A stretch of DNA of 62,903 nucleotides, filler included, from Reclinomonas americana ATCC 50394 (lineage: Eukaryota), in the NCBI GenBank assembly GCA_048213135.1. It is 21 parts of 21 records of this genome, joined end to end, with 100 filler letters (N's around TTAATTAATTAA, not from the genome) between each part and the next. Parts side by side here need not be neighbours in the genome. Positions count along the whole stretch, not along the records: positions 21,793 to 30,304 come from AFZH01023881.1; 20 more parts are not named here. The stretch is one strand, 5' to 3'. A program made the translations under genes and the position numbers. The notes beneath the pieces were generated by a model that was not told the origin of the DNA, ran no database searches, and was given only the letters and a program-made list of their open reading frames with translations. Shown here in pieces: positions 12,144-37,061 of this stretch (position 1 is the first letter of the stretch; every line of letters starts with the position of its first letter).

Positions 12144-12151
12144 GTGCGGGG

Positions 12152-15502: not shown

Positions 15503-15528
15503 GACGGCATCACCCAGGGAGCAAGAGC

Positions 15529-16223: not shown

Positions 16224-16323
16224 NNNNNNNNNNNNNNNNNNNNNNNNNNNNNNNNNNNNNNNNNNNNTTAATTAATTAANNNNNNNNNNNNNNNNNNNNN
16301 NNNNNNNNNNNNNNNNNNNNNNN

Positions 16324-16874: not shown

Positions 16875-17995
16875 GCGCTGTCGGCGTCGGGCTGATCGGC
16901 AGCGGGGTCATCAGCGACACCTACCTGGAGAACCTCGCCTCCTTCCCCGACGTCGAAGTCCGAATAATCGGAGGCCTCAACGTCGAGCGAGCTCGCGCTC
17001 GCGCCGAGAAGCACGGGATACCGAGGTGGGGAACCGTCGATGACGTCCTGGGCCACCCCGACGTGCAGGTCATCGTGAACCTGACCGTGCCTGCCGTTCA
17101 CGTGGAGGTGTCTGCGGCGGCGATCGCTGCCGGGAAGCACGTGTGGACAGAGAAGCCCATCGGGCTCGAACTCGCCGACGTCGACGCGTTGCTGCGCAGT
17201 GCGGATGCTGCGGGGCTACGCGTCGGCTCTGCCCCGGATACGGTCCTCGGACCCGGTTTCCAGACGGCCAAACGTGCCATTGAGAGCGGCGTGATCGGTT
17301 CGCCGCTGTTCGCGTACACCTCGTTTCAGACCCAGGGGCCGGACGTCTGGCATCCGGGCCCGCAGTTTCTGTTCTCTCGCGGTGCGGGACCACTGTTCGA
17401 CATGGGGCCCTACTACTTCAGTGCACTTGTCAGCCTCCTGGGCCCGGTCGCCCGGGTCGTGGCCGCGGGCATGAAACCACAGGCTGAGCGCGAGATCCGC
17501 ACGGGTCCGAGCGCGGGCACACGGTTCCCTGTGCGGGTCCCCACCACCCTGCAGATGCTCACCATCTTCGAGGGCGGCCAGCAGGCGCACAGTCTGCTGA
17601 GCTTCGACTCGGCGTTGGAACGGCACGGCATCATCGAGATACACGGCACAGAAGGCTCGATCATCGTTCCCGATCCCAATAGGTTCACCGGGCGCACGGC
17701 CTACGTGAAACCACTGTCGGAGTTCCTGGACGGTCAGGAGATCGACCAGCCGCAGATCGAGATTCAGCCGATGGGCGCCGCTGTCGGGCGCGGGCTCGGG
17801 CTGCTCGAGATGGTCCGCGCCATCGCCGAGAATCGACCGCACATTGCTTCAGGAGAACTGGGCCGGCACGTCCTCGACATCATGCTCTCGGCGGAGGAGT
17901 CCGCTGCCACCGGTCAGTTCGTGACCGTCGACAGCTCCGTCGCACCGGTTCCCGCGCTCCCAGGAGGCTTTGATCCGTTCTCGTCGACTGTATGA
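16871..17995 (+). CDS. Gfo/Idh/MocA family oxidoreductase
   Basis: GTGA overlap; GVGLIGSGVIS, NLTVPAVH, GKHVWTEKP, GAGPLFDMGPYY, GTEGS. Confidence 0.92.
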   Translation: MSAVGVGLIGSGVISDTYLENLASFPDVEVRIIGGLNVERARARAEKHGIPRWGTVDDVLGHPDVQVIVNLTVPAVHVEVSAAAIAAGKHVWTEKPIGLELADVDALLRSADAAGLRVGSAPDTVLGPGFQTAKRAIESGVIGSPLFAYTSFQTQGPDVWHPGPQFLFSRGAGPLFDMGPYYFSALVSLLGPVARVVAAGMKPQAEREIRTGPSAGTRFPVRVPTTLQMLTIFEGGQQAHSLLSFDSALERHGIIEIHGTEGSIIVPDPNRFTGRTAYVKPLSEFLDGQEIDQPQIEIQPMGAAVGRGLGLLEMVRAIAENRPHIASGELGRHVLDIMLSAEESAATGQFVTVDSSVAPVPALPGGFDPFSSTV

Positions 17996-18089
17996 ACGAA
18001 ACGGCCGGGTGCGCTCGCCGCTGCGCTGCCGAAAGCACCGCGAGGGGTGCCCAGAGGGAGACTCTCCGGCGCGGCGCTGTGAAATCTCC

Positions 18090-18488
18090 TCATCGATTCC
18101 AGTGGCGGAGTTTCTCGGGGTTGCACACGACCCAGACGCTGGACAGGAGTCCCGATCGCTCCTCTGCGGTGACTGCTCCGATGACCTGTCCGCCGCGGAT
18201 CAGGGTGAACCCGGGAACGCTGTTGATCGACGCCATCGCGACGGACGTGTCCGACGTCATCAGGCTGAGCAGCTGCGAGGTAGCCGCGGCCGGTCCCTCG
18301 GCGGGCTCGGCCGCGTGGGGAACAAACCCGCCGCTGTCGATGATCACCACGACGTCCCGGTGCAGCATCTCGCGGAGCACATCCTCATCGTTCGACGTCA
18401 GAGCGCTCGCGAGTTCGCTCATCGTGCCCTCGGCGGCGGCACCACGAAGCCTCCGGCGCCACCACGCCGGGTAGTGCTTGCGGGTCAT
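18090..18488 (-). CDS. Stand-alone SnoaL-like protein resembling the ECF41 C-terminal extension
   Basis: ATGA overlap with the sigma gene; LHRDVVVIIDSGG, INSVPG and WVVCNPEKL correspond to the ECF41 DGGG and NPDKL motifs. Confidence 0.75.
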   Translation of the reverse strand: MTRKHYPAWWRRRLRGAAAEGTMSELASALTSNDEDVLREMLHRDVVVIIDSGGFVPHAAEPAEGPAAATSQLLSLMTSDTSVAMASINSVPGFTLIRGGQVIGAVTAEERSGLLSSVWVVCNPEKLRHWNR

Positions 18489-19405
18489 GCGCTGACCGCG
18501 GTGACATGTCCGAGCTTCTGCGGGCTCATGACCCAGAGGAGCTGAAGGATGCCTTCGGTCGATGTCGTCACGGTCACGATGGTGGTCACCGTGCCGTCCT
18601 CGGTGAGAGTCGCGGCGGGCTGACCGTTGACGTGAACCCAGTCGATCGTCTTGCCTGTCCAGAAGTGGTGGGCGAACGCGGCGACGAACTGCGCCACGCG
18701 GCGGCGTCCGTTCACGGGAGTGCGCGCGGCGAGCTTCACCCCGTTGCCGTCGGTGTAGCTCACGACGTCGGACGCGAACAGGCGCTCCAGCTCCTGGGCG
18801 TCACCCTTCTGCGCCGCGGTGAGGAAGGCTTCCAGCAATCGGCGTTGCGCGTGCGGATCCACGGTCGCCACCTTCGTGGAAGACAGATGCGCTCGCGCCC
18901 TGCTGACGAGCTGTCGCGCGCTGACGACGCTGCTGGAGATCACCTCGGCGATGCGGGGATACGGGTAGTCGAACGCTTCGCGGAGGATGTACGCCGCCCG
19001 CTCGGTCGGGGTCAGCTTCTCGAGCGTCAAGAGGATCGCGAACTGCAGCGCCTCAGCCCGCTCGGCACCGAGAGCCGGGTCGTCGTCCGTGTTGACCGGC
19101 TCGGGCAGCCACGGCCCGATGTAGGTCTCGCGTCGCGTGTGCGAGGACTGCAGGACGTTGATCGAGAGCCTGGTGGCGATCGTCGTGAGAAACGCCACGG
19201 GCTCCTGAATCTGCGTGCGATCCGTGTTCTGCCAACGGATCCACGTCTCCTGGACGATGTCCTCCGCATCCGCGACGCTGCTCAGCATGCGATAGGCGAT
19301 GCCGAACAGGCGTCGACGGTGGGTGTCGAAGACCCGCACGGCCTCGGCAAGGTCACCGCTTCTGCCGAGATCGTCAGGGCTCGACATCACCTCATCGATT
19401 CGCAT
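18485..19405 (-). CDS. sigJ: ECF41-family RNA polymerase sigma factor (SigJ-like) with SnoaL-like extension
   Basis: LFGIAYRMLSSVADAEDIVQETW, RRETYIGPWLPEP, LTPTERAAYILREAFDY, DVVSYTDGNG, VNGQPA, SPQKL. Confidence 0.92.
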   Translation of the reverse strand: MRIDEVMSSPDDLGRSGDLAEAVRVFDTHRRRLFGIAYRMLSSVADAEDIVQETWIRWQNTDRTQIQEPVAFLTTIATRLSINVLQSSHTRRETYIGPWLPEPVNTDDDPALGAERAEALQFAILLTLEKLTPTERAAYILREAFDYPYPRIAEVISSSVVSARQLVSRARAHLSSTKVATVDPHAQRRLLEAFLTAAQKGDAQELERLFASDVVSYTDGNGVKLAARTPVNGRRRVAQFVAAFAHHFWTGKTIDWVHVNGQPAATLTEDGTVTTIVTVTTSTEGILQLLWVMSPQKLGHVTAVSA

Positions 19406-19451
19406 CTCACCCGCTCCGTTCCGTGCCCGCGCACACCCCTACAGAAGCACA

Positions 19452-19478
19452 GACCGGTGGCGGCCACGATCTGTGACA
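19452..19478 (-). promoter_or_regulatory. ECF41-type promoter driving the sigma operon
   Basis: TGTCACA-N16-GGTC on the minus strand, versus the known ECF41 consensus TGTCACA-n16-CGTC. Confidence 0.8.
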
Positions 19479-19523
19479 GGTCGGGTGAGGAATCCGACGG
19501 GAGCCGATCGGTCGAAGGCGCGC

Positions 19524-19550
19524 TGTCACATCGAGCGTCTCTCCCCGGTC
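19524..19550 (+). promoter_or_regulatory. ECF41-type promoter driving the divergent oxidoreductase
   Basis: TGTCACA-N16-GGTC, 48 nt upstream of the ATG at 19599. Confidence 0.82.
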
Positions 19551-19598
19551 CTATCTGATGGGCGCCGAGCGGCGCTCTTGAGAACGGAAGGCAGGGAA

Positions 19599-19831
19599 AT
19601 GGCAAAGATCGTCGTCATCGGGGGCACGGGCCTCATCGGATCCAAGGTCGTGGCGAAACTGACGGAGCACGGCCACGAGGCCGTCGCGGCTTCGCCGAAC
19701 ACCGGTGTCAACTCCCTCACCGGAGAGGGCCTCGCCGAGGCATTGACAGGAGCGGATGTCGTCGTCGACGTCTCGAACTCGCCGTCGTTCGCACCGGACG
19801 ACGTGCTCGAGTTCTTCACCACCTCGACGCG
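19599..19831 (+). CDS. SDR/NmrA-like NAD(P)-binding oxidoreductase (3'-truncated)
   Basis: MAKIVVIGGTGLIGSKVV..GVNSLTGEGLAEALTGADVVVDVSNSPSF; a typical ECF41 neighbour. Confidence 0.88.
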
Positions 19832-20003
19832 NNNNNNNNNNNNNNNNNNNNNNNNNNNNNNNNNNNNNNNNNNNNTTAATTAATTAANNNNNNNNNNNNN
19901 NNNNNNNNNNNNNNNNNNNNNNNNNNNNNNNCGCGTCACCCGTCTGCCGTCGATCCACGTGTTCTGCGTCTTGCCAAGTCATATCGGCCCCCGGCTCACC
20001 ACC

Positions 20004-21206
20004 CTAGACGGCGCTCACCGTCTCATCGCCGGTCCCGAGCCGGAAGAGAGGCACGAAGTCGGGGTCGACGATCGCGGGTCGCGTCAGGCTGAACGACGAG
20101 ATGTCGTGCTCCGTGCGGCCGACCGTGAGCAGATCGGCGAGGATCCGCCCGACCAGGCTCGCGAACTTCCCCGCGTGCCCTGCGCCGTTGAACACGGCGA
20201 CGTGAGGATGCCCCGGCACGGTGTCGAGCACGAAGTCCCGGTCGGCGGGCATGTCGTACACGCACGTCTTGCTCATCAGCAGCGGTCCGTCGGCGCCCGG
20301 CAGGTGCGCACGGAGGAAGGCGCGGAGGACTTCCGGCTCGTCGTCGTCCGGGACGAACGAACGTTCCGAGGGGGAGATGAAGTGGCCGCGCATGTCGCGT
20401 GCGAGCTTGACCGCCGCTTCGCCGTACACCGGGAATCCGTAATGCACCTCGTCGCTGTGGTGGATCCAGATCGGGAATCTGTCCGGAGTGAAATCGGAGA
20501 GATTCTGCGAGGAGAAGTACCCCACCTGCTCCTGGCTCAGAGTGAGAGCGAACGACAGTCCGAGGTCGGGCATCAGGTCTCCGAGCCAGGATCCCGCGGA
20601 GACGACGAGATGGCCTCCGTCGAACGATCCCTCCGACGTCGAGACGGTCACCCCGTCGGCGTCGACCCGCACGCCCGTCACGACGACACCGGAGCGGAAC
20701 TCCACCCCGGCGGCCCTGGCCAGCGACACATGGGCCGACACGGAGCGGCGGATGTCGAGGATGCCGGCATCCGCCTGATGGATCCCGATCGTGTCGTCCG
20801 ACACGTTCCACTGCGGATACTGGCCGCGGATGTCGTCGATCGTCAACTCGTCGTAGCGGATGCCGGCCGCATCCATCGCCCGTCGGTACTCGTCGATCTC
20901 CGCCGCGCCCGGGCTGTCCGCCACCGCGAGGTCGATGCCTCCGGTCTGCGTGTAGATCTTCAGACCGGAGCGCTCCTCGACGTGCGCCCACGCGGCGAAC
21001 ATCGCGTCGGTGAGCTTCGTGTAGTCGTCGCGGTGGTACGCCCGACGGATGATCCTCGAGTGGTCGCCGGACGAGCCGAGGGCGTGGCCGAGCTCGAACT
21101 GCTCCAGCACGAGCACGCGTTCTGCGCCCGCCTGCGTCAGCCAGTAGGCGGCAGCGGATCCGATGGCTCCGGCGCCGATGACGATGTGGGAGTATCCCTG
21201 AGTCAT
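20004..21206 (-). CDS. solA: N-methyl-L-tryptophan oxidase / monomeric sarcosine oxidase family flavoprotein
   Basis: IVIGAGAIGSAAAYWL, HALGSSGDHSRIIRRAY, KTCVY (FAD-linked Cys) and GHAGKFAS. Exact substrate is uncertain. Confidence 0.82.
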   Translation of the reverse strand: MTQGYSHIVIGAGAIGSAAAYWLTQAGAERVLVLEQFELGHALGSSGDHSRIIRRAYHRDDYTKLTDAMFAAWAHVEERSGLKIYTQTGGIDLAVADSPGAAEIDEYRRAMDAAGIRYDELTIDDIRGQYPQWNVSDDTIGIHQADAGILDIRRSVSAHVSLARAAGVEFRSGVVVTGVRVDADGVTVSTSEGSFDGGHLVVSAGSWLGDLMPDLGLSFALTLSQEQVGYFSSQNLSDFTPDRFPIWIHHSDEVHYGFPVYGEAAVKLARDMRGHFISPSERSFVPDDDEPEVLRAFLRAHLPGADGPLLMSKTCVYDMPADRDFVLDTVPGHPHVAVFNGAGHAGKFASLVGRILADLLTVGRTEHDISSFSLTRPAIVDPDFVPLFRLGTGDETVSAV

Positions 21207-21692
21207 GTCGTTCCGTTCTTCCGATGATCCTCGAGGCGGGGCGTCGCGAACGATGCGATGAACCGCTCGGCCGCGGCATCCACCTCCTCGGAGGGGCTCA
21301 GCAGTCGTTGCAGCAGCAGGCCGCGTACGCACGCGATCGCGATGAGGCTCTGCTGCACGGCCTCCGCCTCGGGCCATCCCTCGCGTCGTGCCGCCGCCTG
21401 GAGAAGGCGGGTGAGGTCGTCGAGGTCGGCGACGAAACCGTCGAAGGCGCCGCGCTCGTACACCGCCAAGCCGATCAGGTGGAAGAAGGCGCGAGTCCGC
21501 TCCTCATGCCCGGTGTTGGCGTAGAAGCCCCAGATGGCGCGGAGCATGTCGACGAAGCCGAGGTCGTCGCCGGTCGCCGCGATGATGAGGTTGTCCCGAC
21601 GACGCGCCTCCGAGAGGACGGCGCTCAGCAGTGCCGGTCGAGACCCGAAGTGGTAGGTCAGGAGCGTGTGGTGCACGCCGAGGCGCTCGGCC
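21203..21692 (-). CDS. TetR-family regulator (5'-truncated)
   Basis: AERLGVHHTLLTYHFGSRPALLSAVL; ATGA overlap with the oxidase. Confidence 0.85.
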
Positions 21693-23826
21693 NNNNNNNN
21701 NNNNNNNNNNNNNNNNNNNNNNNNNNNNNNNNNNNNTTAATTAATTAANNNNNNNNNNNNNNNNNNNNNNNNNNNNNNNNNNNNNNNNNNNNCTCTCGTG
21801 CGTGTGTGTGTGTGTGTGTGTGTGTGATTTGCTCGCTCAGGATTGTCACTCCCGCCTTTCTTCTCCCGCCTTGCTCTGAGACGTCGTCCATCCCTCGCCA
21901 GGCTACAGCCAGTACGCCACACAACATACAGCAGTATGAGAGCGACGTGACTCCGATGATGCGTGTGGGCTTTCAAAGACCGACACGGGACACGTCGATG
22001 AGAAATCGGCATAATATCAATGGACAAGCAGGGTGGTGGCTCGAGGTGGCGCTCCACTGCACCGTGCTGCTGTCCAGCAACACTTCATATCAACTGACTT
22101 GCATTCTCTATCAACGAGGACTCGCATGTCGTGCTGCTTGGATACGCAGCTATGGCCCTATTGTGCTGATGCCACCGCAGAGTACATCGGAGAATCCAGT
22201 AAGCACGACGAGTCAGCGATACCGCACACCTCCTTGGATCGGCCCACAGCGAGGTTGATGAGGGCACGATGATGGCAACCGGTACAGGAGAGGAGCAACC
22301 ATAATAGCAGCAAGCGGTGGAAGAGGCAGCTGCGTCGTGAGACTCGCCTCCTCTCACCAACATCACAATCAATGCCTCGTGCCTTCAATCACACTCACAG
22401 TCGGTCGGTAAATCGTCTCATGCATGTACTGTGAGGCACGGAACCACGTGTTGCCCAGTGGACAATTACTTGCCAGCACGCCTGTGACACAGAATTGAGT
22501 CAGTCAATCGTCAAGTACTAGTCTCGTCAACTTGTTCCTCAACGCACGTGCAGAACACGCACGCACCGAATGTTGCTGGACACGCACGCGTCTTCAATCT
22601 CCTATGACCACCAGCAGCATCACTCGGCAGTGACAGCGACAACCAAGGAGCGCACATCATTGATTCGCTCCGACTTGCCAGTCGGGATTGAACGATCCAC
22701 CGGCCAGGACCATGTCGCACATAACGGCACGCATGCCACCCACGCCACGCTCTCCATGGCATGCACGACCTACACGACTGAGGTGAGTGGGAGGGAAAGC
22801 GGAAAGAGAGATCACGACGAAAAAGTCCACACACCTGCTTCGTGCAGGGTGGGATGCGAGTGGGGAGCAGAGTGAGTGAGGTGACAGCCGGCAACGGGCG
22901 ATGCACAGCATGCCTGTCTTCGTCATGGAACAACGAGGGGGACCTGCCCTAAGGTGCCTGCATGTCGGTGTGCTGTGAGCGAAAGAATGGAGGAAGGAGA
23001 GAGATATCTGCTCTGTCTCAACGACGAACACACCAATCAGCATCTGATACCAACTCAAGAGGCAAGCCAAGGGATGCTTCTGCACACACATCCATCCTGC
23101 GAAGGAGAGGGAGAGAAGAATCAGCATGCAGTCAGGCCATCTCACACACTTCGGCATCGGGAAGCTCACCATGATGAACTGGCAGGATGGCAGTCGGTGC
23201 ATCATGAGTAGGGAAGCATGCTCGACCTCGAGCGAGTGCGGAAAAGAGGAGTGGATGACTGGGGAGGCAAATGAGCGCACAAAGGCAGGGAGATGGCGGA
23301 GAAAGAGATAGACTCTGCAGGAGGCAGGAAAAAGAGAGCTGAAAGACAGGCATTCTTCAGAGCCGGAGGGAGAATGTCCCCGGCGCACAGGCACAATGGG
23401 AAGCAGAGCAGTGATGCCAAAGTGGTGCGCAAAAGAAGACGCGAGGAAACAAACATCGATGACTTGCTCTCCTGAGGCACATACGTGGGCGACGAAAGAT
23501 GCACGCACAACAGACATCACAAAGAGACAGAAAGACAAAACAGACTCCCAAGTGATTCATCTCGCTCGCACACACAAACTGAGGTGAGAAAAAGACACGC
23601 ACACAGAGGGAGACATGCTTCACGCCCGCACACTCACATTCTCATGACACGACAGGGCAACAAACACGGGAGAACAATTCTTCATCAACAACTTTCTCAT
23701 TGCCTTCCTCTGTCATCCTCTTCCCCCTCCTGCACCTCGCACAACCACCCGCTCTCCCTTGCAAGACACGGAATACAACTCACAATCACCAGCAGCCACC
23801 GCTCTCCCTCCCTCCGACTCACCGAT

Positions 23827-25000
23827 TCAGCACCGGAAGAGGACGACCTCGGCATCCTCGACGATGAAGCAGCGCAGAACCAGCTCGGGAAGGCATCGTG
23901 AATCTACTTCATCCTCCTGCATCTCCTGCACGTCGTGCATAACCGAGCGTGCGGCACCGAGTTCGAGACGAGCAAGGCCACGCGGCGTGGACCACACTCG
24001 CACGGTCTCGTCGTGGCCACCCGCACTCACGATGTGCTGGCCATCCGGAGTGGCGGCCACACACGACACCCATTCGTCATGACCCTCCAACCGTCGCACC
24101 TCCTCCCCGCTCGCCAGCAACCACACCCGCACGGTGCAGTCCCCGCTCCCACTCACAATATGCTGACTGTCAGGAGAGACCGCCACGGACGACACCCATT
24201 CTGTGTGCCCCTCCAACCGCCGCACCTCCTCCCCGCTTGCCAGCGACCACACCCGCACTGTGCAGTCCCAGCTCCCACTTACGATGTGATGACCCGCAGG
24301 AGTGATGGCGACAGACGTCACAGTGTCGGCGTGTCCCTCTAACCGTCGCACCTCTTCCCCACTCGCCAGCAACCACACCCGCACTGTGTTGTCTCCACCC
24401 CCACTCACAATGTGCTTACCATCGGGAGTGACAGCGACAGACTCCATCCAGTGAGTGTGTCCTTCCAACCGTCGCACCTCCTCCGCACTCGCCAGAGACC
24501 ACACCCGTACAGTCTTGTCGAAGCCGCCGCTGACGACGCGCTGACCATTGGGGGTGACGGCGACAGACATCACCTCATCGGTGTGGCCCGCCAGCCGTCG
24601 CACTTCTTCACCACTCGCCAGCGGCCACACACGTACGGTACAGTCTCCACCTCCACTCACGATGTGCTGGCCATCAGGAGTGACGGCGACAGAAAACACC
24701 ACATCAGCGTGTCCATCCAGTCGTCGCACTTCTTCCCCACTTGCCAAAGACCACATTCGAACGGCACTGTCCATGCACCCACCAACAATGTGCTTGCCAT
24801 CGGGAGTGACGGCGACGGATCGCACCACTGCGAGACTCTGAATGATCTGTGTCGATCACTCGCGGTGAGACGCACGCATCAGCAATCAAAGACAAACATA
24901 ACAACACAAGAACAACAACCGCACACATGCACAAGCACATGGATGCACATGCAGACACCAACCACGCAAAGTGCGCACACACTCACACCTTTGTTGCCAT
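23827..25000 (-). CDS. Stand-alone WD40 protein copy 1 (7 near-identical 42-aa repeats plus ~54-aa tail), intact, ~343 aa
   Basis: Micro-exon ATGGCAACAAAG (25000-24989), phase-0 GT-AG intron (24988-24847), exon 2 at 24846-23827. Repeat consensus is GHxxxVxSVAVTPDGQHIVSGxxDxTVRVWSLASGEEVRRLE. Confidence 0.9.
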
Positions 25001-27000
25001 TCTCCGTGTGTGTGTGTGTGTGATTTGCTCGCTCCGGATTGTCACCGTTTCCCGCCTTTCTTCGCCCGCCTTGCTCTGAGACGCTTCCGCATCCCTCGCT
25101 GCGCTGCAGCCAGCACCCCACACAGCATGCGGTAGTGTGTGAGTGATGTGGCTTCGTTGATGCGCGTGATCTTTCGAAGACCGACACGAGGCTCGTCGAT
25201 GCGAAATTGGCAGAATGGACATGCTGGTGGTGGTGGCACAAGGTGGCGCTCCACTGCACCGTGCTGCTGTCCAGCAACATTGCCTTTCGACTGACCTGCA
25301 TTCTCTCTCAACGAGGATTGGCATGTCGGCCTGCTTGGATACGCAGTTGTGGCCCTGGTGTGCTGATGCCACGGCACACCCGAGAATCCATGGAGCACCG
25401 AGTCTTCGAAACCGCACACCTCCTTGGCTCGGCCCACAGCGAAGCTGACGAGGTGCACGTCATGATGGTACGACGAAGAAGGAGAGTCATAGGGAATAGG
25501 AGAGGAACGACCACCACAGCAGCACAACGATGGAGCAGGCAGCTGTGTCGTGAGGCTCGCCTCCTCTCACCCAAGTCACAATCAATGCCTCGTGCCTTCA
25601 ATCACACTCACATTCGGTCGGTGAATCGTCTCCAGCATATACTGTGGCACGGAACCACGTGTCTTCGCATGCCAGTGACGAGTCACTTGCCAGCACGCTC
25701 ACACACAGAATTGAGTCAGTCAATCTCAAGTCTCACCAACTAGCTCCTCAGTGCAGAAGCAGAACACGTACGCACCAGGCCACGCGCGCGTCTGCAGTCT
25801 CCCATGACCATCACCATGGTCACTCGGCAGTGAGAGCGACAACCAAGAAGCGCACATCATCGATTCGCTCCGACTTGCCAGCCGGGATTCAAAAACGATC
25901 CACCAACCAGGCCACCATCGCACAGCACGGCACGCGTACGTACATCCACCCAGCCACGCACTCCATGGCATGGATGGTCTGCATGAATGAGGTGAGTGGG
26001 AGGGAAGGAGGAAAGAGCGATCAAGACGAACAAGTCCACACACCTGCTTCGTGCAGGGTGGGATTCGAATTAGTGAGGCGATAGCCGACAACCGGCGATG
26101 CACGACACGGCCAGTCATCGTCACGACCAACGAGAAGGAGAACGTGTTTCCAAGGTGTCTGCATGTCGGTACACTGTGAGCGAAAGAATGGAGGAAGGAG
26201 AGAGATATCTGCTCTGTCTCAATGACGAACACACCGATCAGCACTTGATACCAACACGCGTTTGGGCAAGCGGCAAGGCGAGGGACGCTCACACAACCAT
26301 CCTGCAAGGGAGAGAAGGAGCAGAGTCAGTATGCAGGTATGCCACCTCACACACTTCGGCATCGGGAAGCTCACCATGATGGGCTGGCAGGATGGCAGTC
26401 GGTGCATGATGAGCAGACCAGAATGTTCGACCTCGAGCGTGTGCGGCGAGGAGGGGTGGATGACTGGGGAAGCAGATGAGCGCATAAAGGCAGGGAGATG
26501 GCGGAGAAAGAGAGAGAGAGAGAGAGAGAGCGGAAAGACAGGCATCCTGCAGAGACGGACGGAGAATGTCCGCGGCTCACAGGCACAATGGGAAGCAGAG
26601 TATGGCGGTGCCAAGGAAGTGTGCAAAACGAGACGCGAGGGAAACAGACAACGGTGACTCGGTCTCATGAGGCACGTATATCAGCGACGAAAGATGCACG
26701 CACAACAGACATCACAACGAGGGGAAAAGAAATCATAGACTCCAATTGATTCATCTCGCTCGCATACACAAACGGAGGTGAGAAAGAGACACGTAAACAG
26801 AGGGAGACGTGCTTCACTACCTCTCTCTCACTCACATGATAGGGCAACAAGCACAGAGAACAATTCTGCATCATCCACGTCGACTTCCTCTCCTCTCGTC
26901 AGTCGTCCTCTCTTCCCCCACCCACTCTCCCCCGCAAGACACGAAAAAACAACTCACAATCACCAGCAGCCACCGCTCTCCCTCCCTCCGACTCACCGAT

Positions 27001-28048
27001 TCAGCACCGAAAAAGGACAACCTCGGCATCCTCGACGATAAAGCAGCGCAGAACCAGCTCGGGAAGGCATCGTGAATCTACTTCATCCTCCTGCATCTCC
27101 TGCACGTCGTGCATAACCGAGCGTGCGGCACCGAGTTCGAGACGAGCAAGGCCGCGCGGCGTGGACCACACTCGTATCGTCCCGTCAATGCCACCTGCAC
27201 TCACAATGTGCTGACCATCGGGAGAGACGGCCACAGACGATACCCATCCGTCATGTCCCTCCAACCGTTCCACTTCCTCCCCGCTCGCCATTCGCACGGT
27301 GCAGTCCCCGCTCCCACTCACAATGTGTATGCTGACTACCAGGGGTGACAGCGACTGACCACACCCAGTCAGCGTGTCCTTCCAGCCGTCGCACCTTCTC
27401 CCCACTCGCCAGAGACCACACTCGTACTGTGTAGTCCCAGCTCCCGCTAACAATGTGCTGGCCATTGGGGGTGACGGCGACAGACCACACCTTATCATCG
27501 TGTCCCTCTAACCGTCGCACCTCCTCGCCACTCTCCAGCGACCACACTCGCACTGTCTTGTCGAAGCCGCCGCTGACGACGTGCTGTCCATTGGGGGTGA
27601 CGGCGACTGACCACACCTCCCGGGAGTGACCCGTCAACCTTCGCACTTCATTGCCAGTCGCCAGCGACCACACGCGTACTGTGTTGTCTCGACTCCCACT
27701 GATAATGTGCTGACCATCGAGAGTGACGGCGACAGATGTCACCGTGGCGGTGTGTCCATCCAGCCGTAGCACTTCTTGCCCACTCGCCAGCGACCACACT
27801 CGAATGGTACTGTCCTCGCATCCACCCACAATGTGCTTGCCATCGGGAGTGACGGCAATGGACCGCGCCGCAGAAGCGAGACTCTGAATGATCTGTATCA
27901 AGCACTCGCAGTGAGACGCACGCACACAGCAACGTTGGAAGACACGCACATACACACAATCAACAACCGCACACACGCAGAAGCACACGAATGCACGCAC
28001 AGACACCAACCACGCAAAGCGCGCACAAATTCACACCTTTGTTGCCAT
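27001..28048 (-). pseudogene. WD40 copy 2 (6 repeats), frameshifted
   Basis: Same MATK micro-exon (28048-28037) and intron. Repeat 5 has a ~4-nt insertion near 27325 and a 9-nt deletion. The tail is identical in protein to copy 1. Confidence 0.8.
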
Positions 28049-30237
28049 TCTCCGCGTTGTGTGTGTGCGTGTGAGAGTGTGATTTGCTCGCTTAGGATTG
28101 TCACTGTTTCCCGCCTTCTTCTCCCGCCTTGCTCCGAGACGCCGTTCATCCCTCGCCAGGCTGCAGCCAGCACTCCACACATCATGCGGTAGTGTGTGCG
28201 ATGTGGCTCTTTGATACGTGTGGGCTTTTGAAGACCGACATGGGACTTGTCGATGGGAAATCGGCAGAATGGACAAGGGTGGTGGCTCGAGGTGGCGCTC
28301 CACTGCATCGCGCTGCTGTCCAGCGACACTCTCTTTCGACTGACCTGCATTATCTCTCAACGAGGACTGGCATGTCGGGCTGCTTGAATACGCAGTTGTG
28401 GCCCTGGTGTGCTGATGTCACGGCACACAAGAGAATCTATGGAGCACCGAGTCTTCGAAACCTCAAGCCTCCTTGGATCGGCCCAAAGCGAGGCTGATTA
28501 GGGCACGATGATGGTACGACGAAGAAGGAGAGTCACAGGGAACAGGAGAGGAGCGACCAGTACAATAGCACGTGTACAGCGATGGACGAGGCAGCTGTGA
28601 TAGTGAGTCTCCCTTTCCTCACCCGAATCACAATCAATGCCTCGTGCCTTCAATCACACTCACAGTCGGTCGGTTGAATCGTCTCATGCAGGCACTGTGA
28701 GGCACGGAACCATGTGTCTTCGCATGCCAATCCCTTGCCAGGACGCCTGTGTTCAGATGACACGTGCACGCAGAATTGAGTCAGTAAATCTCAAGTCTCA
28801 CCAACTTGCTCCTCAACGCACGTGTAGAACACACACGCACCGTATGTTGCTGGCCTCGCACGTATCTGCAGTCCCCCGTGGCCACCACCATCATCACTCA
28901 ACAGAGACGGCGGCAACCAAGAAGCGCACATCATCGATCCGCTCTGACTTGCCAACCGGGATCGAGAACGATCCACCGACCAGGCCACCCATCGGGAAAC
29001 ACGACACGCATCTGTGCATCCATGAGTAGATTGCCGAGCACGCGTCTGCAGTCACCCATGGCCACCAGCATCATCACTCGACAGAGACGGCGGCAGCCAA
29101 GGTGCGCACATCATCGATCCGCTTCGACTTGCCAGCCGGGATTGAAAACGATCCACCAACCAGGCCATCCATCGCACATCACGACACACATGTGTACATC
29201 CACCCAGCCACGCACTCCATGACGTGCACGGCCTGCATGAATGAAGTGAGTGGGAGGGAAGGAGGAAAAGAGAGATCACGAAGAACAGGGCCACACAACT
29301 GCTGAGTGCATGGTGGGATTCAGGTGTGGAGCCGAGTGCGTGAGGGGACGGTCGACAACGGGCAATGCACATCACGCCTGTCATCGCCACGACATGCTTT
29401 CCATGGCCTCTGCATGCCGGTGTGCTGTGGGCAAAGAATGGAGGACGGGGAGAGAAATCTGCTCTGTCTCACTGACAAACACACCGATCAGCACCTGATA
29501 CCAACACGCGTTTGTCAAGAGGCAAGCCAAGAGATGCTCACACAACCATCCTGCAAGGGAGAGAAGGAGCAGAGTCAGTATGCAGGTATGCCACCTCACA
29601 CACTTCGGTGCCGGGAAGCTCACCATGATGGACTGGCAGGATGGCAATCGTAACACGGTGAGCGGACCAGCATGCTCAGTCTCGAGCGTGTGCAAGGAGG
29701 GGCGGATTACTGGGGAATCAGATGAGCGCACAAAGGCAGGGAGATGGCGGAGAATGAGATAGACTCTGCAGGAGGCAGGAAAAAGAGAGCTGAAAGACAG
29801 GCATCCTGCAGAGACGGACGGAGAATGTCCGCGGCTCACAGGCACAATGGGAAGCAGAGTATGGCGGTGCCAAGGAAGTGCGCAAAACAAGACGCGAGGG
29901 AAACAGACAACGGTGACTCGCTCTCATGAGGTACGTATATCAGCGACGAAAGATGCACGCACAACAGACATCAAAACGAGGGGAAAAGAAATCACAGACT
30001 CCGCATACACAAATGGAGGTGAGAAAGAGACACGTAAACAGAGGGAGACGTGCTTCACCACCTCTCTCTCACTCACATGATAGGGCAACAAGCACAGAGA
30101 ACAATTCTGCATCATCCACGTCGACTTCCTCTCCTCTCGTCAGTCGTCCTCTCTTCCCCCACCCACTCTCCCCCGCAAGACACGAAAAAACAACTCACAA
30201 TCACCAGCAGCCATCTCTCTCAATTCGACTCACCGAC

Positions 30238-30304
30238 TCAGCACCGGAAACGGACGACCTCGGCATCCTCCGTGACGAAGCAGCGCAGAACCAGCTCGGG
30301 AAGA
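30238..30304 (-). CDS. WD40 copy 3, 3' end only
   Basis: LPELVLRCFVTEDAEVVRFRC-stop at the contig edge. Confidence 0.8.
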
Positions 30305-30776
30305 NNNNNNNNNNNNNNNNNNNNNNNNNNNNNNNNNNNNNNNNNNNNTTAATTAATTAANNNNNNNNNNNNNNNNNNNNNNNNNNNNNNNNNNNNNNNN
30401 NNNNCGGTGCCGGCGCCAGTGTGAGAAGGGGAGCTCGAGGCGGGCAATGATTGCCACTTGCCGCTGCTTCATGACAAGGCGACATGAAGGCACAAGCACA
30501 AGGCGGGTGTGTGGGTTGGTGAGCGAGGACTCGCCCAACGCCGAGCAGAACGCGTGTTAGTTCATTCCATGGTCTCATCTCAACCACCCACACACATCCA
30601 CACACACCTCGCACCCGGCATTCTCTTCTTGCACTCCCACTGCACTGTGCTGTGCCGTATCTGCTTCCCGGCTCCCTCCACTTGGCAAGGCAGTGGAGAA
30701 GCACGTGTGAGGCGGTACGGCAGTCAACAGGAGAGAGTTGCACACAGACAGATCGGTCTTCGTACATTCATTGAGC

Positions 30777-31062
30777 TCACTCCGTCCAGCACCTTCCAGG
30801 CGCACGGCGTTCAGTCACCTCTGCATCCTCCAGCACAAAACACCGCAGCACGACATCGACGAGGATCCAGTCACAGTCATCTTCGGCAAGCAGCTCGTTG
30901 ACGGCCAGCACGGCCAGTCGTGCGGCCACAACCTCTTGTCCCGCCAGCCCACGCGGCGTGAACCACACACGGATCGTTTTTTCCGCACTCCCACTGGCCA
31001 TCGGGAGTAACGACGACAGAGTATACCCATCCAGTGTGTTCCCCCCTAACCGTCCAACACTG
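30777..31062 (-). pseudogene. Divergent, degraded paralog of the same WD40 family
   Basis: EHTGWVYSVVVTPDGQ and, in another frame, SGSAEKTIRVWFTPRGLA..VVLRCFVLEDAEV. Confidence 0.7.
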
Positions 31063-31429
31063 CGCAACAGGAACAAAGGAAAGAAAGAAGAAACAATCAG
31101 ATGAGAAAGTGGGCTGTGAAGCAAGAGGGGACAGACATCGGCGAACGGGATGGAATGAGGAGAATGAGTGAGGAGTAGCGTGCTGCAATTACGTGGGTGC
31201 AAAAAGAAGAAGAAGAGAGAGAGAGAGGGTAGGCACAAATCGGAGTGGGGAGGAAGAGGATAGCAAGCGTGGAACGCGGCACAGTGACGAGCAAGCATCC
31301 CTCAATCGACACGAAGCAGAACAATGCGAGACGAGAAGAAAGAGAGAGTGGGCGCACGGAGGCATGAACAATGCAAGTACATGACATGAAGGAAGGAGAA
31401 AAAGGGCGGATCTTGAGGAGCGGACGATG

Positions 31430-31945
31430 GAGAGGCCAAGAAAGGAAGGCAAAATGGACATAAGAAAGAGCGAAACGAGACGAGCCGAGGAGAAGAAAGG
31501 AGAGTGGACAGAGTCGTGAAAGATGCAAGTGAAAAGAGATCAACGAAAGGCAACAAGGGCGGCTCACGGGAAGGGGACAATGGAGAGGGGAGATGCCAAG
31601 AAAGGAAGGCAAAAGAAGACACAAGAAAGAGCGAAACAAGACGAGACGAGGTGAGGAAAACGAGAGTGGGAGGAGGCGGGACAGATGCAAGTGAAAAGAG
31701 ATCAAGGAAGGAGAAAGGGACCGAAAAGGGAAGTCCTTGAAGCACAGAGAGGTGAGGAGAAGGAGAGTGAGAGTGGATGGATGCGTGAAGGATGCAAGTG
31801 AAAAGTGATCAACGAAAAGCAACAAGGGCGGCTCACGGGAAGGGGACAATGCAGAGGAGAGAGGCCAAGAGAGGAAGGCAATAGAAGACACAAGGAAGAG
31901 CGAGACGAGACGAGACGAGGTGAGGAAAAGGAGAGTGGGAGGAGT
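31430..31945 (+). repeat. Degenerate purine-rich tandem modules (probably intronic)
   Basis: Three copies each of GCCAAGA(A/G)AGGAAGGCAA..GAGAC and GATGCAAGTGAAAAG(A/T)GATCAA, and two of CAACAAGGGCGGCTCACGGGAAGGGGACAATG. Confidence 0.8.
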
Positions 31946-34228
31946 CGTGAAGGGTGCAATGGACGTGACCAATGCGAGTGCATAATGGAAGTGAGGAAGA
32001 ACGAGAGACAAAACGTGAATCGCTCACCTGCTCAGTATGTGAGACACAAGAACACAATTGGCGTAGCGTGTACTCGCTCCGCGTCATGGGTGTCGCACAA
32101 GGCGGGCAAGGAGAGATCTGAATGTGATGCTGGAGCGCGCCATTGCGAGGAACATGCACATCTCGTCGCCACGGCGCTCCGTCTCGCACAACACAATAGA
32201 CAGATGGTGCGATGGCAGGCCTCACTCCCCTGCGACATGAGAGCGCATGTGTGAGCAAAGAAAAAAACAGAGCAGCCAGCACTCGTGTTGCACCACCGCA
32301 AGCACACACCGATCGACAGAAAATGTGTGTGGGGATTCGAGCAGTCAAGGGACACATCGACAAGTGACCGGATGCCGCCCAGCAGCACCTGCTGCAGTAG
32401 AGCATGTGGACCAGGCGAGTCGAAATGCGTCACGCATCTGTCGCAGAAGTGGCATCATGCGTGTCAGTTCATGGCCATGCTGGTCGCCCTCCCTTCAACC
32501 TCAAGTCGCAAACGATCCTCTTCTCTCTCCACTCCTCTCACCGCTCCCGTCAACTCACCCCGCACGTGTGTATCGTCGAACGCTACCAGCATCACCAGTT
32601 GCTGTGGAGGAGTGCGTGACGGTCGATCAACGCAGAGCCACCAACAGGAAGAACAAGATGCGCCACATTGCGAATCCGGCGGTGGCCGACGACTGGCTCA
32701 CACGAGCTCCCATCGATATCACGCCGGCTGACAAGCGACGGTCGAATGGCACCGCTCTCTCACAATCATCGCCTGCAGGCGGAGAGCGCGATAAAGTGAG
32801 TGTGGGCGCAGAATTGGGCGAAGAAGGAGGGCGTAGAGAGTAAATCGGTGAATCTGAAGGGAGAGGGAGAGGTGGGTGGAGGAGAAAGAAGAAGGCAACG
32901 GTGGCATGGCGGACAAGGGGGAGAGGGGGGAGAGGGGTGCAGAGACNNNNNNNNNNNNNNNNNNNNNNNNNNNNNNNNNNNNNNNNNNNNTTAATTAATT
33001 AANNNNNNNNNNNNNNNNNNNNNNNNNNNNNNNNNNNNNNNNNNNNACTCGAGTGGCGGGAAAACTGAATCGAGGTACAACACGCACACATCTCAGCAGC
33101 AGACGTACATATGCGCACACGCACATGCACAAACACACAGCCATGCTCACTATGAGGAGGTGGATGAGAAAGAGAGGGAGAGAGAGAAATGAGAGAAAGA
33201 GACGCGAAACAATGAATGCCACTTTCACACACTCCACACTCTCTCCCTTTCCCACACACTCACTCACCTTGTGTGTGTGTGTGTGCAAGCAGCTGCTCAT
33301 GCACGATGTCGACAAGCGTGCCACACTCGTCCTCCTCCTCATTCTCCGAGTCTCCTCGCAAAACGCACACACGCGACGAGAGAATGTGTGCCAACGACGA
33401 AACACGGTCACTCGCTCACTCGCTCATGCATGCACGATCACACGCAAGCCACACCACTGATGCTTTGCTCGTGCATCAGCGCATCACACCACACAACAGA
33501 AGAAGAAGAAAGAGCGGCGGAGGTGCGGGGGACGGACAAACGATGCAACGTTGGACAACGTGTGGGCGTCTCTTCTCCCTCTCCTTGCTGGTATTCATCG
33601 CAGAGGCAGTGTGTGCAGGAGAGTGAGATGCAACGAGCTGATGCATTCATTGCGCCACCACGATAGCCACCACCACAGCCACCCAGTCCGCGATGATCGT
33701 GGTTCCCGAATCAATCGGCATTCACGCCACACTGCAGACCAAGGACGGACGCAAAAGCCACAGAGGAGGAGGAAGAGATGGATGGAGCGGCGCTGTGCCA
33801 ATCTCCTTGCACCGCATGAACATCGACTGTGGCCGATGGGAGAGAGAGAGCAAGGGAGGCGACGGAGTGGCGAGTCTGCCATCCCGCGCATTGCAGCAGA
33901 GGGGGGAATGTGGGGAAGGGGGAAGGGGAGAGAGCTCAAGGAGAATGTTGAGAGGTTGAGAGTGGGAGGAAGAGGAGAAGGATGGGGAGTGAGGAAAACA
34001 AACCAGCAGGAACAAGCATGCAAACACACACACACACTCTCTTTCTCTCTCTCTCTCACACACACATGCTGTTGCAATCGATGGCGGTTATTGTGAAGGA
34101 AGAAAACGACAAGCAGCGTGTCGCAATGCCGCGTGCGGTCTGCATGCAATACGCTCCTGTTTGACGAGCCAGGCATGATGGTGAAAGAGGAGAGCGAGAG
34201 TGGGGGAAAGGAGAGCGAGAGTGGGGGA

Positions 34229-34647
34229 GAAGGAACAATGCAACAGGAACAACTCACAGAGTCGTCCAAACCTTGCGATGCATGCACCGGCGATGATGGA
34301 GACAGGAAGAGAGAGACAGCTCTCCATTTGAGCAGGATCACGGATCGTGCTGCTGAACAGACACAATGAATGAATGAGTGAGCGCGAGGGAGGGGAAGAA
34401 GGAACAATGCAACAGGGACAACTCACAGAGACGTTCGAGCCTTGCGATGCATGCACCGGCGATGGTGGAGACAGGGAGAGACAACTCTGCATTTGAGCAG
34501 GATCACGGATCGTGCTGCTGAACAGACACAATGAGTGAATGATTGAGAAAGGAGAGCGAGAGAGGGAGAAGGAACAATGCAACACGGACAACTCACAGAG
34601 ACGTCCGAACCTTGCGATGCATGCACCGGCGATGGTGGAGACAGGGA
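34229..34647. repeat. ~170-bp tandem repeat (2.5 copies, truncated by the gap) shaped like exon plus intron on the minus strand
   Basis: GAAGGAACAATGCAAC starts at 34229, 34398 and 34568. On the minus strand each unit has a CAG acceptor, ~90 nt, and a GTGAGT donor. Confidence 0.88.
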
Positions 34648-36952: not shown

Positions 36953-36960
36953 GGCCGGAC

Positions 36961-37051: not shown

Positions 37052-37061
37052 GGAGAGCCGG

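What the first reader, a model, noticed from the sequence alone, without database searches (positions are those of the whole stretch)
23827..28048. Tandem array of stand-alone hypervariable WD40 genes: candidate protist non-self recognition repertoire
Seen: each gene is a 4-codon micro-exon plus one exon of near-identical 126-bp repeats. The scaffold is homogenised, but the residues after GH (ADVVF, TDEVM, THWME, ADTVT, TEWVS, DEWVS in copy 1; TATVT, SREVW, DDKVW, ADWVW, DGWVS in copy 2) and around SGxxDx (GGDC, GFDK, GGDN, SWDC, SRDN, SWDY) change radically, often to W/D/E/R. Repeat number differs (7 vs 6), one copy is frameshifted, and more copies lie beyond both contig ends and at 30777. 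Known: Podospora HNWD NLRs (HET-E/HET-D) have 42-aa WD repeats under concerted evolution with diversifying selection at equivalent top-face positions. Inference: this is a birth-and-death receptor family, but without any NACHT or effector domain, which would be an unusual minimal immune or substrate-recognition system.
Basis: partly seen in the sequence, partly recalled or inferred. Interest (0 to 1): 0.8.

Follow-up and report, generated by a model that had tools for sequence, protein, structure and literature searches.

The report
Tandem stand-alone WD40 propeller genes
A protist contig carries a tandem array of small genes that each encode a seven-bladed WD40 propeller with a family-specific tail; the blade-to-blade variation is the normal pattern for this kind of propeller, and nothing shown here points to an immune-receptor system.

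Summary
The sequence facts mostly hold. An 8.5-kb contig (21793-30304) carries about 2.7 copies of a 3.05-3.17 kb unit. Each unit has a minus-strand gene: a 4-codon first exon, a 142-144 nt GT..AG intron, then one exon with 42-codon WD40 repeats and a 42-residue tail. Gene 1 is intact, with 7 blades. Gene 2 has 6 repeats, a 4-nt insertion and a 9-nt deletion. Variation sits at repeat positions 3, 4, 5, 7, 22, 23 and 25, in the two top-face loops.

- **Repeats are not near-identical.** DNA identity is 56-80% and synonymous difference about 0.48. Most blades pair with their positional counterpart in the other gene. This looks like birth-and-death, not concerted evolution.
- **Positive selection is not shown.** dN/dS at the variable sites is 0.57-0.80 and non-significant.
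- **The variable positions are generic.** The same six are the most variable in 78 unrelated WD40 homologues.

No NACHT or other domain, and no codon-like substitution pattern, lies in the 2-kb spacers. The only true relative of the tail is a Reclinomonas americana EST product. Verdict: a lineage-specific WD40 family, of modest interest. The immune role is unsupported.

The parts
21793..30304 (.). Contig holding the array: about 2.7 copies of a 3.05-3.17 kb unit, cut at both ends by assembly gaps
   Evidence: N-run map and self-BLAST: units 79-86% identical. Linker sequence shown.
24989..25000 (-). Gene 1 exon 1: four codons (M-A-T-K), with A at -3 and G at +4 of the ATG
   Evidence: Read directly. 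The identical 12 nt occur in gene 2. Inferred exon; no RNA evidence.
24847..24988 (-). Gene 1 intron (142 nt), GTGTGAGT...ACAG
   Evidence: An in-frame TGA lies upstream of exon 2. This stretch is 70% identical between units, against 85-86% for the flanking windows.
23827..24846 (-). Gene 1 exon 2: 339 codons plus stop, giving seven 42-residue WD40 repeats (the last is 43) and then the tail
   Evidence: Pfam WD40 in 7 stretches, E 2.1e-77. Repeat table. AF2 model pLDDT 89.8 with 27 strands. Foldseek matches 7-bladed propellers at TM 0.95 normalised to the target.
23830..23955 (-). Gene 1 C-terminal tail, 42 residues, with the conserved core VLRCF(I/V)xE(D/E)A
   Evidence: Identical protein in gene 2, with 4 synonymous and 0 nonsynonymous differences. 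Also conserved in P0121, the gene 3 fragment and the remnant. No Pfam family at E<=10.
23775..23990 (-). Block 90-100% identical between units 1 and 2, covering the tail CDS and about 55 nt of 3' UTR
   Evidence: 30-column identity scan. The rest of the unit is about 80% identical.
28037..28048 (-). Gene 2 exon 1 (the same four codons)
27893..28036 (-). Gene 2 intron (144 nt), GTGTGAAT...ACAG
27001..27892 (-). Gene 2 exon 2: six repeats plus tail, reading frame broken; probable pseudogene
   Evidence: Split into ORFs 27251-28009 and 27001-27498. Three-frame read. One 126-bp unit is missing relative to gene 1.
27325..27328 (-). 4-nt insertion in repeat 5 of gene 2 (frameshift). A 9-nt deletion that removes the V-W-x codons follows 33 nt downstream.
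30241..30304 (-). C-terminal fragment of a third gene, cut by the contig end
   Evidence: tblastn: 18 of 21 residues match the gene 1 tail; 65% identical to P0121.
25001..27000 (.). Spacer between genes 2 and 1; no detectable coding content (likewise 21793-23826 and 28049-30240)
   Evidence: No real Pfam hit among 25 ORFs at E<=1. No phase bias of substitutions in any spacer window, all P>0.08.
30801..31038 (-). Dispersed remnant on another contig (30405-32946): one blade plus tail, 47-49% identical, read in two overlapping frames
   Evidence: No spacer homology of 250 bp or more to the array.

Best explanation
This is a tandem array of paralogous genes in an intron-bearing, GC-rich heterotrophic protist. 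At least four units are implied, and two complete genes are visible. The nearest relative found is an EST product of the jakobid Reclinomonas americana.

Each gene encodes a protein of about 343 residues. It consists only of a seven-bladed WD40 beta-propeller of the consensus-like, 'highly repetitive' class (as in 2YMU and PkwA) plus a family-specific C-terminal tail of about 42 residues.

The family evolves by duplication, divergence and loss:
- The blade scaffold and the tail are under purifying selection.
- The top-face residues of each blade change about four times faster, at or below the synonymous rate.
- One copy is already broken.

Inferred mechanism: the propeller's top face (the D-A and B-C loops) binds a protein or peptide ligand, and this ligand differs between paralogues. 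The invariant tail ties all paralogues to one common partner or location. This would make them interchangeable adaptors or substrate receptors.

Shown: the array, the fold, the site pattern and the selection regime. Inferred: the first-exon/intron model, ligand binding and the role of the tail.
For: - **Array and unit divergence.** Self-BLAST 79-86%; windowed identity.
- **Fold.** Pfam WD40 x7. AF2 with a 70-row alignment gives pLDDT 89.8 and 27 strands in seven blades. Foldseek matches 7BIG and 5YZV at TMt 0.95, rmsd 1.0 A. By sequence, 2YMU scores E 2e-188, followed by designed consensus propellers.
- **Selection regime.** In 5 ortholog blade pairs the scaffold gives dS 0.49, dN 0.083, ratio 0.17. 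The variable sites give dN 0.32, ratio 0.67. The N:S counts differ, 22:7 vs 30:49, Fisher P 0.0005.
- **Tail.** 0 nonsynonymous and 4 synonymous differences over 42 codons.
- **Orthology by position.** Eight of 13 blades have their best scaffold match in the other gene (g2r1 ties between g1r1 and g1r2). Orthologous pS is 0.37, against 0.48-0.49 within genes and 0.49 between non-orthologous blades.
- **Stand-alone status.** No domain in 25 spacer ORFs. Codon-phase bias of substitutions occurs only at 24410-23811 (P 6e-5 to 2e-3).
- **Expression and a real tail.** P0121, from EST EC795383.1 of Reclinomonas americana (EukProt), holds the last 1.5 repeats plus the tail in one frame, 64% identical.
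- **Generic site pattern.** In 78 of 120 homologues with 5 or more repeats, the most variable positions are 23, 7, 5, 25, 4 and 3.
Against: - There is no RNA evidence for this locus, so exon 1, the intron and the absence of further upstream exons are inferred from sequence alone.
- Only two complete genes were seen, and one is broken. The size and expression of the family in this genome are unknown.
- The tail is modelled with low confidence (pLDDT 28-59 for residues 290-339) and matches no known family. Its role as a common docking element is a guess.
- In older, within-gene comparisons, dN at the variable sites (pN 0.56) exceeds the scaffold dS (pS 0.48) after correction. Both are near saturation, so past episodes of diversifying selection are not excluded.
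- The low synonymous difference in the tail (0.14 vs 0.36, Fisher P 0.027), together with the identical 3' UTR stretch, may reflect gene conversion rather than selection on the tail protein.
Confidence: 0.6

Rival explanations
1. One reading: a HET-E/HET-D-like non-self recognition repertoire. WD repeats are homogenised by concerted evolution while top-face residues are driven apart by diversifying selection, here without a NACHT or effector domain.
For: - The variable positions are in exactly the register of the selected HET-E codons: ours 5/7 and 23/25 against theirs 7/9 and 25/27, flanking conserved residues.
- W, D, E and R are frequent at these sites.
- Blade number differs between copies.
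- Mosaic identity between units suggests local gene conversion.
- For the 4 sites alone, dN/dS on their own codons is 1.6, from counts of 11.5 vs 1.5.
Against: - Blade identity is 69-81% in protein, below the >85% criterion for high internal conservation (PMC4986451, passages).
- Synonymous difference between blades is 0.48-0.49, and most blades pair as orthologues between genes.
- No significant nonsynonymous excess: P 0.35-0.83, and ratio 0.57-0.80 against the all-codon dS.
- The same positions vary in 78 unrelated homologues.
- A permutation test for conversion tracts among the 13 blades gave no globally significant tract (best global P 0.17). The best pairwise P of 0.0005 becomes 0.04 after correcting for 78 pairs.
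- No signalling domain.
Confidence: 0.1
2. The WD exon is the 3' part of a larger gene (NACHT/NB-ARC or other). Its upstream exons lie outside the unit or were missed, so the genes are not stand-alone.
For: No RNA evidence exists for the 5' end. Exon 2 has no ATG of its own before the first blade. Many of the closest database relatives are longer proteins, 338-583 residues, some with TIR or kinase labels.
Against: - A conserved ATG in good context, followed by a GT donor, lies 142-144 nt upstream in both copies.
- The 2-kb spacers hold no Pfam domain and show no codon-phase signal.
- The next thing upstream is the stop codon and 3' end of the neighbouring copy.
- A HMMER search with the tail over 1.84 billion representatives of all lengths found no longer protein carrying it.
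Confidence: 0.07
3. The array is a decaying set of duplicates with no present function (pseudogenes).
For: Gene 2 has a frameshift, a lost Trp and a lost blade. The dispersed copy at 30801-31038 is a remnant. Units are about 20% diverged.
Against: Gene 1 keeps an open frame of 339 codons with scaffold dN/dS 0.17. The tail has only synonymous differences. A related copy is present in an EST library.
Confidence: 0.1
4. The contig is bacterial, like several other contigs in this window, and the WD40 ORFs are ordinary bacterial WD40 genes.
For: Several neighbouring contigs carry bacterial genes. The closest database proteins are metagenomic or bacterial WD40 proteins at 45-59% identity.
Against: - The 2-kb spacers are non-coding, microsatellite-rich and strand-skewed.
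- There is no in-frame ATG for the first blade without splicing.
- The only relative sharing the tail is a protist EST product.
Confidence: 0.03

Closest known systems
Product of Reclinomonas americana EST EC795383.1 (EukProt EP00694, our P0121)
   Same: Holds the last 1.5 WD repeats and the same tail (…WSTPxGLAR…DSRCLPExVLRCFIVE…). It is 64% identical over 107 residues and is the only true hit of the tail in 1.84 billion representatives.
   Different: It is a 116-residue fragment. It has a 6-residue longer acidic linker and 9 extra C-terminal residues with no counterpart in the window. Its N-terminus and genomic arrangement are unknown.
Highly repetitive bacterial WD40 propellers: Nostoc punctiforme 2YMU and the Thermomonospora curvata PkwA WD40 domain 5YZV (and designed consensus propellers 7BIG/7BIE)
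   Same: They are the best sequence and fold matches: E 2e-188 (2YMU), E 1e-67 (5YZV); Foldseek TMt 0.95 and rmsd 1.0 A for 5YZV and 7BIG, TMq 0.80 and rmsd 0.8 A for 2YMU. They share the consensus-like 42-residue blade with variable top-face positions.
   Different: Those are bacterial or designed proteins, 39-43% identical in the structural alignment. 2YMU has two propellers, and PkwA is the C-terminal domain of a kinase. None has this tail, an intron or a tandem gene array.
Podospora anserina HNWD/NWD NLRs (HET-E, HET-D, HET-R)
   Same: 42-residue WD repeats with variation concentrated at the same four top-face codons, and blade-number differences (PMC1805685 passages).
   Different: There is no NACHT or HET domain. 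Blades are 69-81% identical, against about 85% or more. There is no concerted evolution and no demonstrated positive selection.
Single-domain seven-bladed WD40 adaptors such as WDR5
   Same: A stand-alone seven-blade propeller of about 300-340 residues. Foldseek TMq 0.80-0.81.
   Different: 28-30% identity. WDR5 blades are dissimilar to one another, it is a single-copy conserved gene, and it has no such tail (its function is recalled, not tested here).

Membership tests
WD40 repeat beta-propeller (Pfam PF00400) | Several repeats of about 40 residues that match the WD40 profile above the gathering score | tested here: met
   7 stretches, 252.8 bits against a cut-off of 27, E 2.1e-77 for gene 1. 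Gene 2's 252-aa ORF has 4 stretches.
WD40 repeat beta-propeller (Pfam PF00400) | GH dipeptide at the start of the repeat, and a conserved Asp and Trp | tested here: met
   G1/H2 in 11 of 13 repeats, D24 in 13 of 13, W30 in 12 of 12 (one repeat has the codon deleted).
WD40 repeat beta-propeller (Pfam PF00400) | Closed propeller of four-stranded blades | tested here: met
   AF2 pLDDT 89.8, pTM 0.84, 27 strands (the D strand of blade 7 was not called). Foldseek to 7-bladed 7BIG/5YZV: TMt 0.95, rmsd 1.0 A.
Repeats with high internal conservation (HIC, Dyrka et al. 2014) | More than 85% identity between repeats over at least 100 residues | tested here: not met
   Internal blades r2-r6 of gene 1 are on average 74.8% identical, range 69-81%. 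The criterion is taken from PMC4986451 passages.
HNWD/NWD fungal NLRs (HET-E/D/R) | NACHT nucleotide-binding domain N-terminal to the WD repeats | tested here: not met
   No NACHT/NB-ARC in the gene products or in 25 spacer ORFs at E<=1. No hidden coding signal in the spacers.
HNWD/NWD fungal NLRs (HET-E/D/R) | N-terminal effector domain (HET or other) | tested here: not met
   The N-terminus is four residues plus the first blade. No HET or TIR hit.
HNWD/NWD fungal NLRs (HET-E/D/R) | Concerted evolution: repeats cluster by gene or genome rather than as orthologues | tested here: not met
   Best scaffold match lies in the other gene for 8 of 13 blades (one more ties). pS is 0.37 for orthologous pairs, 0.48-0.49 within genes and 0.49 between non-orthologous blades. 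The criterion is taken from PMC1805685 passages.
HNWD/NWD fungal NLRs (HET-E/D/R) | Positive diversifying selection at four top-face codons | tested here: inconclusive
   The sites are in the same register. However, dN/dS is 0.57 against the all-codon dS and 1.6 on the sites' own codons (sd 1.5, nd 11.5), binomial P 0.35. Only 5 independent pairs were available.
HNWD/NWD fungal NLRs (HET-E/D/R) | Repeat-number polymorphism between alleles or strains | not testable with these tools
   Only a paralogue difference (7 vs 6) was seen. No population data exist, and no sequencing run was listed.
F-box/WD40 or SOCS-box/WD40 substrate receptors | An F-box or SOCS-box domain next to the propeller | tested here: not met
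   The tail alone, P0121 and the remnant tail were scanned against Pfam at E<=10. There was no F-box or SOCS-box, and no family at all for the tail. The 'LPE..VLRCF' likeness to the start of an F-box is recalled and too short to count.

The most novel reading that the evidence does not exclude
The family is a modular recognition repertoire peculiar to jakobid-like protists. It would comprise many small propellers that share one invariant C-terminal docking tail and differ on the ligand-binding face. They would be generated by tandem duplication, blade gain and loss, and local gene conversion. They would serve as interchangeable receptors, for prey or bacterial molecules, for viruses, or as substrate adaptors of one common effector complex. 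On this reading the signalling part sits in a separate protein that binds the tail.
Probability: 0.1. Interest if true: 0.6.

Novelty: new member of a known kind. Interest (0 to 1): 0.27.

Why it matters
If the ordinary reading holds, this adds a lineage-specific WD40 family, with an unannotated C-terminal motif, to a poorly sampled group of protists. It also shows that the pattern of a conserved scaffold with a variable top face is not in itself a sign of an immune receptor.

The finding is a useful caution for scans. Consensus-like WD40 proteins show HET-E-like site patterns whether or not they undergo concerted evolution or positive selection. The telling tests are synonymous divergence between blades, orthologue-versus-gene clustering, and dN/dS.

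If the bolder reading were true, it would be a receptor repertoire without a NOD module in a deep-branching eukaryote.

Tried and rejected
- **Own genome.** None is held, so no family census was possible.
- **Sequencing runs.** None was listed and no RNA holder was listed, so splice junctions could not be checked and read laying was not used.
- **The search for homologous proteins.**
  - 'near': 2011 hits among 8000 scored candidates. The best 120 are generic WD40 proteins at 30-59% identity, and none shares the tail.
  - 'shorter', region 1-60: 1 weak hit.
  - 'shorter', whole protein: 145 hits, of which only P0121 belongs to the family.
  - No 'longer' search was run. The tail search over all lengths stands in for it.
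- **Exact look-up.** Neither reading of gene 1 is in the collection.
- **Tail search false hits.** P0122 and P0123 are low-complexity repeats and were rejected on reading them.
- **Single-sequence AF2.** pLDDT 52.7, discarded.
- **ESM Atlas on the tail.** No usable hit.
- **Earlier findings of this scan.** Nothing by place, sequence or words.
- **F-box-like reading of 'LPE..VLRCF'.** Rejected.
- **A 3' intron that removes the stop codon.** A GTGAGT lies 5 nt after the stop. However, P0121's last 9 residues have no counterpart anywhere in the window, so the idea was dropped.
- **GENECONV-like permutation test on the 13 blades.** No globally significant tract.
- **Literature.** 'Reclinomonas americana' + 'WD40' gave 6 papers, 5 listed. 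By title none is about this family, and none was opened.
Full report
**What the window is.** The 62.9-kb window is not one molecule. Twenty linkers of the form N44-TTAATTAATTAA-N44 join about 21 short contigs. Several of these contigs carry plainly bacterial genes: solute-binding proteins, an ABC permease, TetR and a GFO/IDH/MocA oxidoreductase. They have GC 0.61-0.64 and no strand skew. Other contigs are purine-skewed and rich in microsatellites. Neighbourhood in the window therefore means nothing beyond a contig. The finding lies in one contig, 21793-30304. The 'copy at 30777' lies in another, 30405-32946.

**The array.** Self-BLAST shows about 2.7 copies of a unit that are 79-86% identical. 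The distance is 3174 bp from stop to stop and 3048 bp from ATG to ATG between genes 2 and 1. The 126-bp difference is one WD repeat. The right contig end cuts a third gene in its C-terminal tail (30241-30304; 18 of 21 residues match gene 1). The left end cuts the 5' flank of a further unit. At least four units are thus implied, but only two genes are complete.

**Gene model.**
- All genes are on the minus strand.
- Exon 2 of gene 1 (24846-23827) is open for 339 codons. It is preceded by an in-frame TGA and has no ATG before the first blade.
- In both copies, 142 or 144 nt upstream, lies the identical 12-nt ATGGCAACAAAG. It has A at -3 and G at +4, is followed by GTGTGA(G/A)T, and the intervening stretch ends in ACAG.
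It rests on sequence alone. No sequencing run was listed for this contig and no genome is held.

**The protein.**
- Gene 1 matches Pfam WD40 in seven stretches (E 2.1e-77).
- A single-sequence fold was poor (pLDDT 52.7). With a 70-row alignment, AlphaFold2 gives pLDDT 89.8 and pTM 0.84, with 27 strands in seven blades. The tail has low confidence: helix 291-307, and residues 319-339 are below 50.
- Foldseek places the model on seven-bladed propellers: designed 7BIG and PkwA 5YZV at TM 0.95 normalised to the target, rmsd 1.0 A. 2YMU and WDR5 follow.
- By sequence, the nearest solved protein is the 'highly repetitive propeller' 2YMU (E 2e-188), followed by designed consensus WD40 proteins.

**The variable positions.** I cut the two genes into 13 repeats in a 42-residue register, with GH as positions 1-2.
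- Entropy is 2.1-2.7 bits at positions 3, 4, 5, 7, 23 and 25, and 1.46 at position 22. Other positions are 1.5 or less, apart from position 42 (1.88).
- On the model, positions 3-5 lie in the D-to-A loop and position 7 at the start of strand A. Positions 23-25 lie in the B-C turn, and position 22 is the last residue of strand B.
- Paoletti et al. 2007 (PMC1805685, passages read) place the positively selected HET-E codons 7/9 and 25/27 in these same two loops on the top face, flanking conserved residues. Our pairs 5/7 and 23/25 flank V6 and D24, so the register is the same.
- The location claim is therefore confirmed. I inferred the face from the secondary structure, not from coordinates.

**The site pattern is not special.** I built a repeat profile from eight blades and cut the repeats out of the 120 homologues. 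These are mostly metagenomic or bacterial and 30-59% identical to gene 1.
- 78 of the 120 homologues had five or more usable repeats.
- Within those proteins the six most variable positions are 23, 7, 5, 25, 4 and 3, the same six as here.
- Their within-protein blade identity averages 0.58 (range 0.36-0.77). Fifteen of the 78 reach 0.70 or more.
- The internal blades here average 0.75, at the high end of this class but inside it.

**No homogenisation.**
- TRF reports 74-76% matches for the 126- and 252-bp periods. Gene 1 blade pairs are 56-80% identical in DNA.
- Scaffold synonymous difference per site is 0.48 within gene 1 and 0.49 within gene 2. It is 0.49 between non-orthologous blades of the two genes, but 0.37 between positional counterparts.
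- Eight of the 13 blades have their best scaffold match in the other gene (g2r1 ties between g1r1 and g1r2): r1-r1, r3-r3, r6-r5, r7-r6 and others.
- The >85% threshold for 'high internal conservation' (PMC4986451, passages) is not reached.
- A permutation test for shared tracts among blades gave nothing globally significant (best global P 0.17). The best pairwise P of 0.0005 is about 0.04 after correction for 78 pairs.

**Selection.** Five positional blade pairs between the two genes serve as independent contrasts. The sixth pairing was ambiguous and was left out of the sums; it is shown.

| Site class | dS | dN | dN/dS | Test |
|---|---|---|---|---|
| Scaffold codons | 0.49 | 0.083 | 0.17 | n/a |
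| Seven variable codons | 0.47 | 0.32 | 0.67 | binomial P 0.83 for an excess |
| Four HET-E-equivalent codons | n/a | n/a | 0.57 vs all-codon dS; 1.6 on own codons | counts 11.5 vs 1.5, P 0.35 |

- Nonsynonymous to synonymous counts are 22:7 at variable codons against 30:49 at scaffold codons (Fisher P 0.0005).
- Amino acids differ in 16 of 35 variable-site comparisons, against 24 of 172 scaffold comparisons.
- The top-face residues therefore evolve about four times faster than the scaffold, but not demonstrably faster than neutral.
- In the older within-gene comparisons, pN at these sites is 0.56 against a scaffold pS of 0.48. After correction this would exceed 1, but both values are near saturation. 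I count the test as inconclusive rather than negative.

**The broken copy.**
- Gene 2 lacks one 126-bp unit.
- Its repeat 5 has a 4-nt insertion that shifts the frame. Thirty-three nt further on, a 9-nt deletion removes the conserved Trp.
- Its tail protein is nevertheless identical to that of gene 1, with four synonymous and no nonsynonymous differences in 42 codons.
- Either the breakage is recent, or the 3' end has been copied between units. A block of about 215 bp (about 23990-23775), covering the tail and about 55 nt of 3' UTR, is 90-100% identical between units 1 and 2, while the rest is about 80%.
- Units 2 and 3 are 100% identical over at least 150 nt of 3' flank, where unit 1 is only 40-57% identical.
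- Local gene conversion between units is therefore likely, but it does not reach the blades.

**Stand-alone status.**
- Twenty-five stop-to-stop ORFs of 45 residues or more were scanned. Twenty-two came from both strands of the gene 2 to gene 1 spacer, and three from the other spacers. None gave a Pfam domain at E<=1; the best hits were 0.096-0.66, all far below cut-offs.
- As a control-backed test for hidden exons, I counted substitutions between units by phase in 240-nt windows. A 3-periodic bias appears only at 24410-23811 (P 6e-5, 1e-3, 2e-3). No spacer window in three pairwise comparisons shows it (all P>0.08).
- Upstream of each gene lies non-coding spacer, and then the stop codon of the next copy.

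**Relatives.**
- The tail (58 residues) was searched with HMMER against 1.84 billion representatives of all lengths. Three hits were returned. Two are low-complexity repeat proteins and were rejected on inspection.
- The third, P0121 (116 residues, E 6e-13), is the product of EST EC795383.1 of Reclinomonas americana in EukProt.
- It holds the last one and a half blades and the tail in one frame. It is 64% identical to gene 1, with a 6-residue longer acidic linker.
- This shows that a family member is transcribed in a jakobid and that the tail is coding.
- The tail core, VLRCF(I/V)xE(D/E)A, also survives in the gene 3 fragment and in the remnant on the other contig.
- It matches no Pfam family at E<=10 and nothing usable in the ESM Atlas.

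**Conclusion.** The HET-E analogy fails on the features that define that system: a NOD module, an effector domain, blade identity above 85%, concerted evolution and demonstrated positive selection. What remains is a lineage-specific, tandemly duplicated family of small consensus-like propellers with a conserved tail of unknown role. My working mechanism is that the variable top face selects a ligand and the constant tail docks to a shared partner. This is an inference with no direct test here. I rate the finding as a new member of a known kind, of modest interest.

Noticed in passing
whole window; linkers e.g. 21693-21792: The window is about 21 short contigs joined by N44-TTAATTAATTAA-N44, so adjacency between contigs is artificial.
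   Followed up: yes
window 9869-21692 and 36436-41534: These contigs carry bacterial-type genes (SBP_bac_1 x2, BPD_transp_1, TetR, GFO/IDH/MocA, GST, HAD, M20 peptidase, alpha/beta hydrolase). They have GC 0.60-0.64 and no strand skew. Bacterial DNA appears to be mixed into a protist assembly.
   Followed up: partly
window 2979-3276: The heptamer GGAGGGT is repeated 41.6 times (88% matches), amid many purine-rich microsatellites on the plus strand of 1-9768.
   Followed up: no
window 44787-45773 (-): A separate WD40 ORF (328 aa, 4 Pfam WD40 stretches) is only 29-34% identical to gene 1. It is not a member of the tail-bearing family.
   Followed up: partly
window 55247-57028 (-): A 593-aa ORF with a fibronectin type III domain (E 6e-14), next to proline-rich 33/66/99-bp tandem repeats at 54974-55302.
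   Followed up: no
window 34211-34647: A 169-170 bp tandem repeat, 2.6 copies, 87-88% matches, running into a contig end.
   Followed up: no
window 23775-23990 vs 26950-27165; 3' flanks of units 2 and 3: Identity between array units is mosaic. The tail plus the first ~55 nt of 3' UTR is 90-100% identical between units 1 and 2. Units 2 and 3 are 100% identical over at least 150 nt of 3' flank, where unit 1 is only 40-57% identical. This suggests local gene conversion.
   Followed up: partly
window 28858-29202: A 180-bp direct duplication (1.9 copies, 86% matches) inside the spacer of unit 3 only.
   Followed up: no
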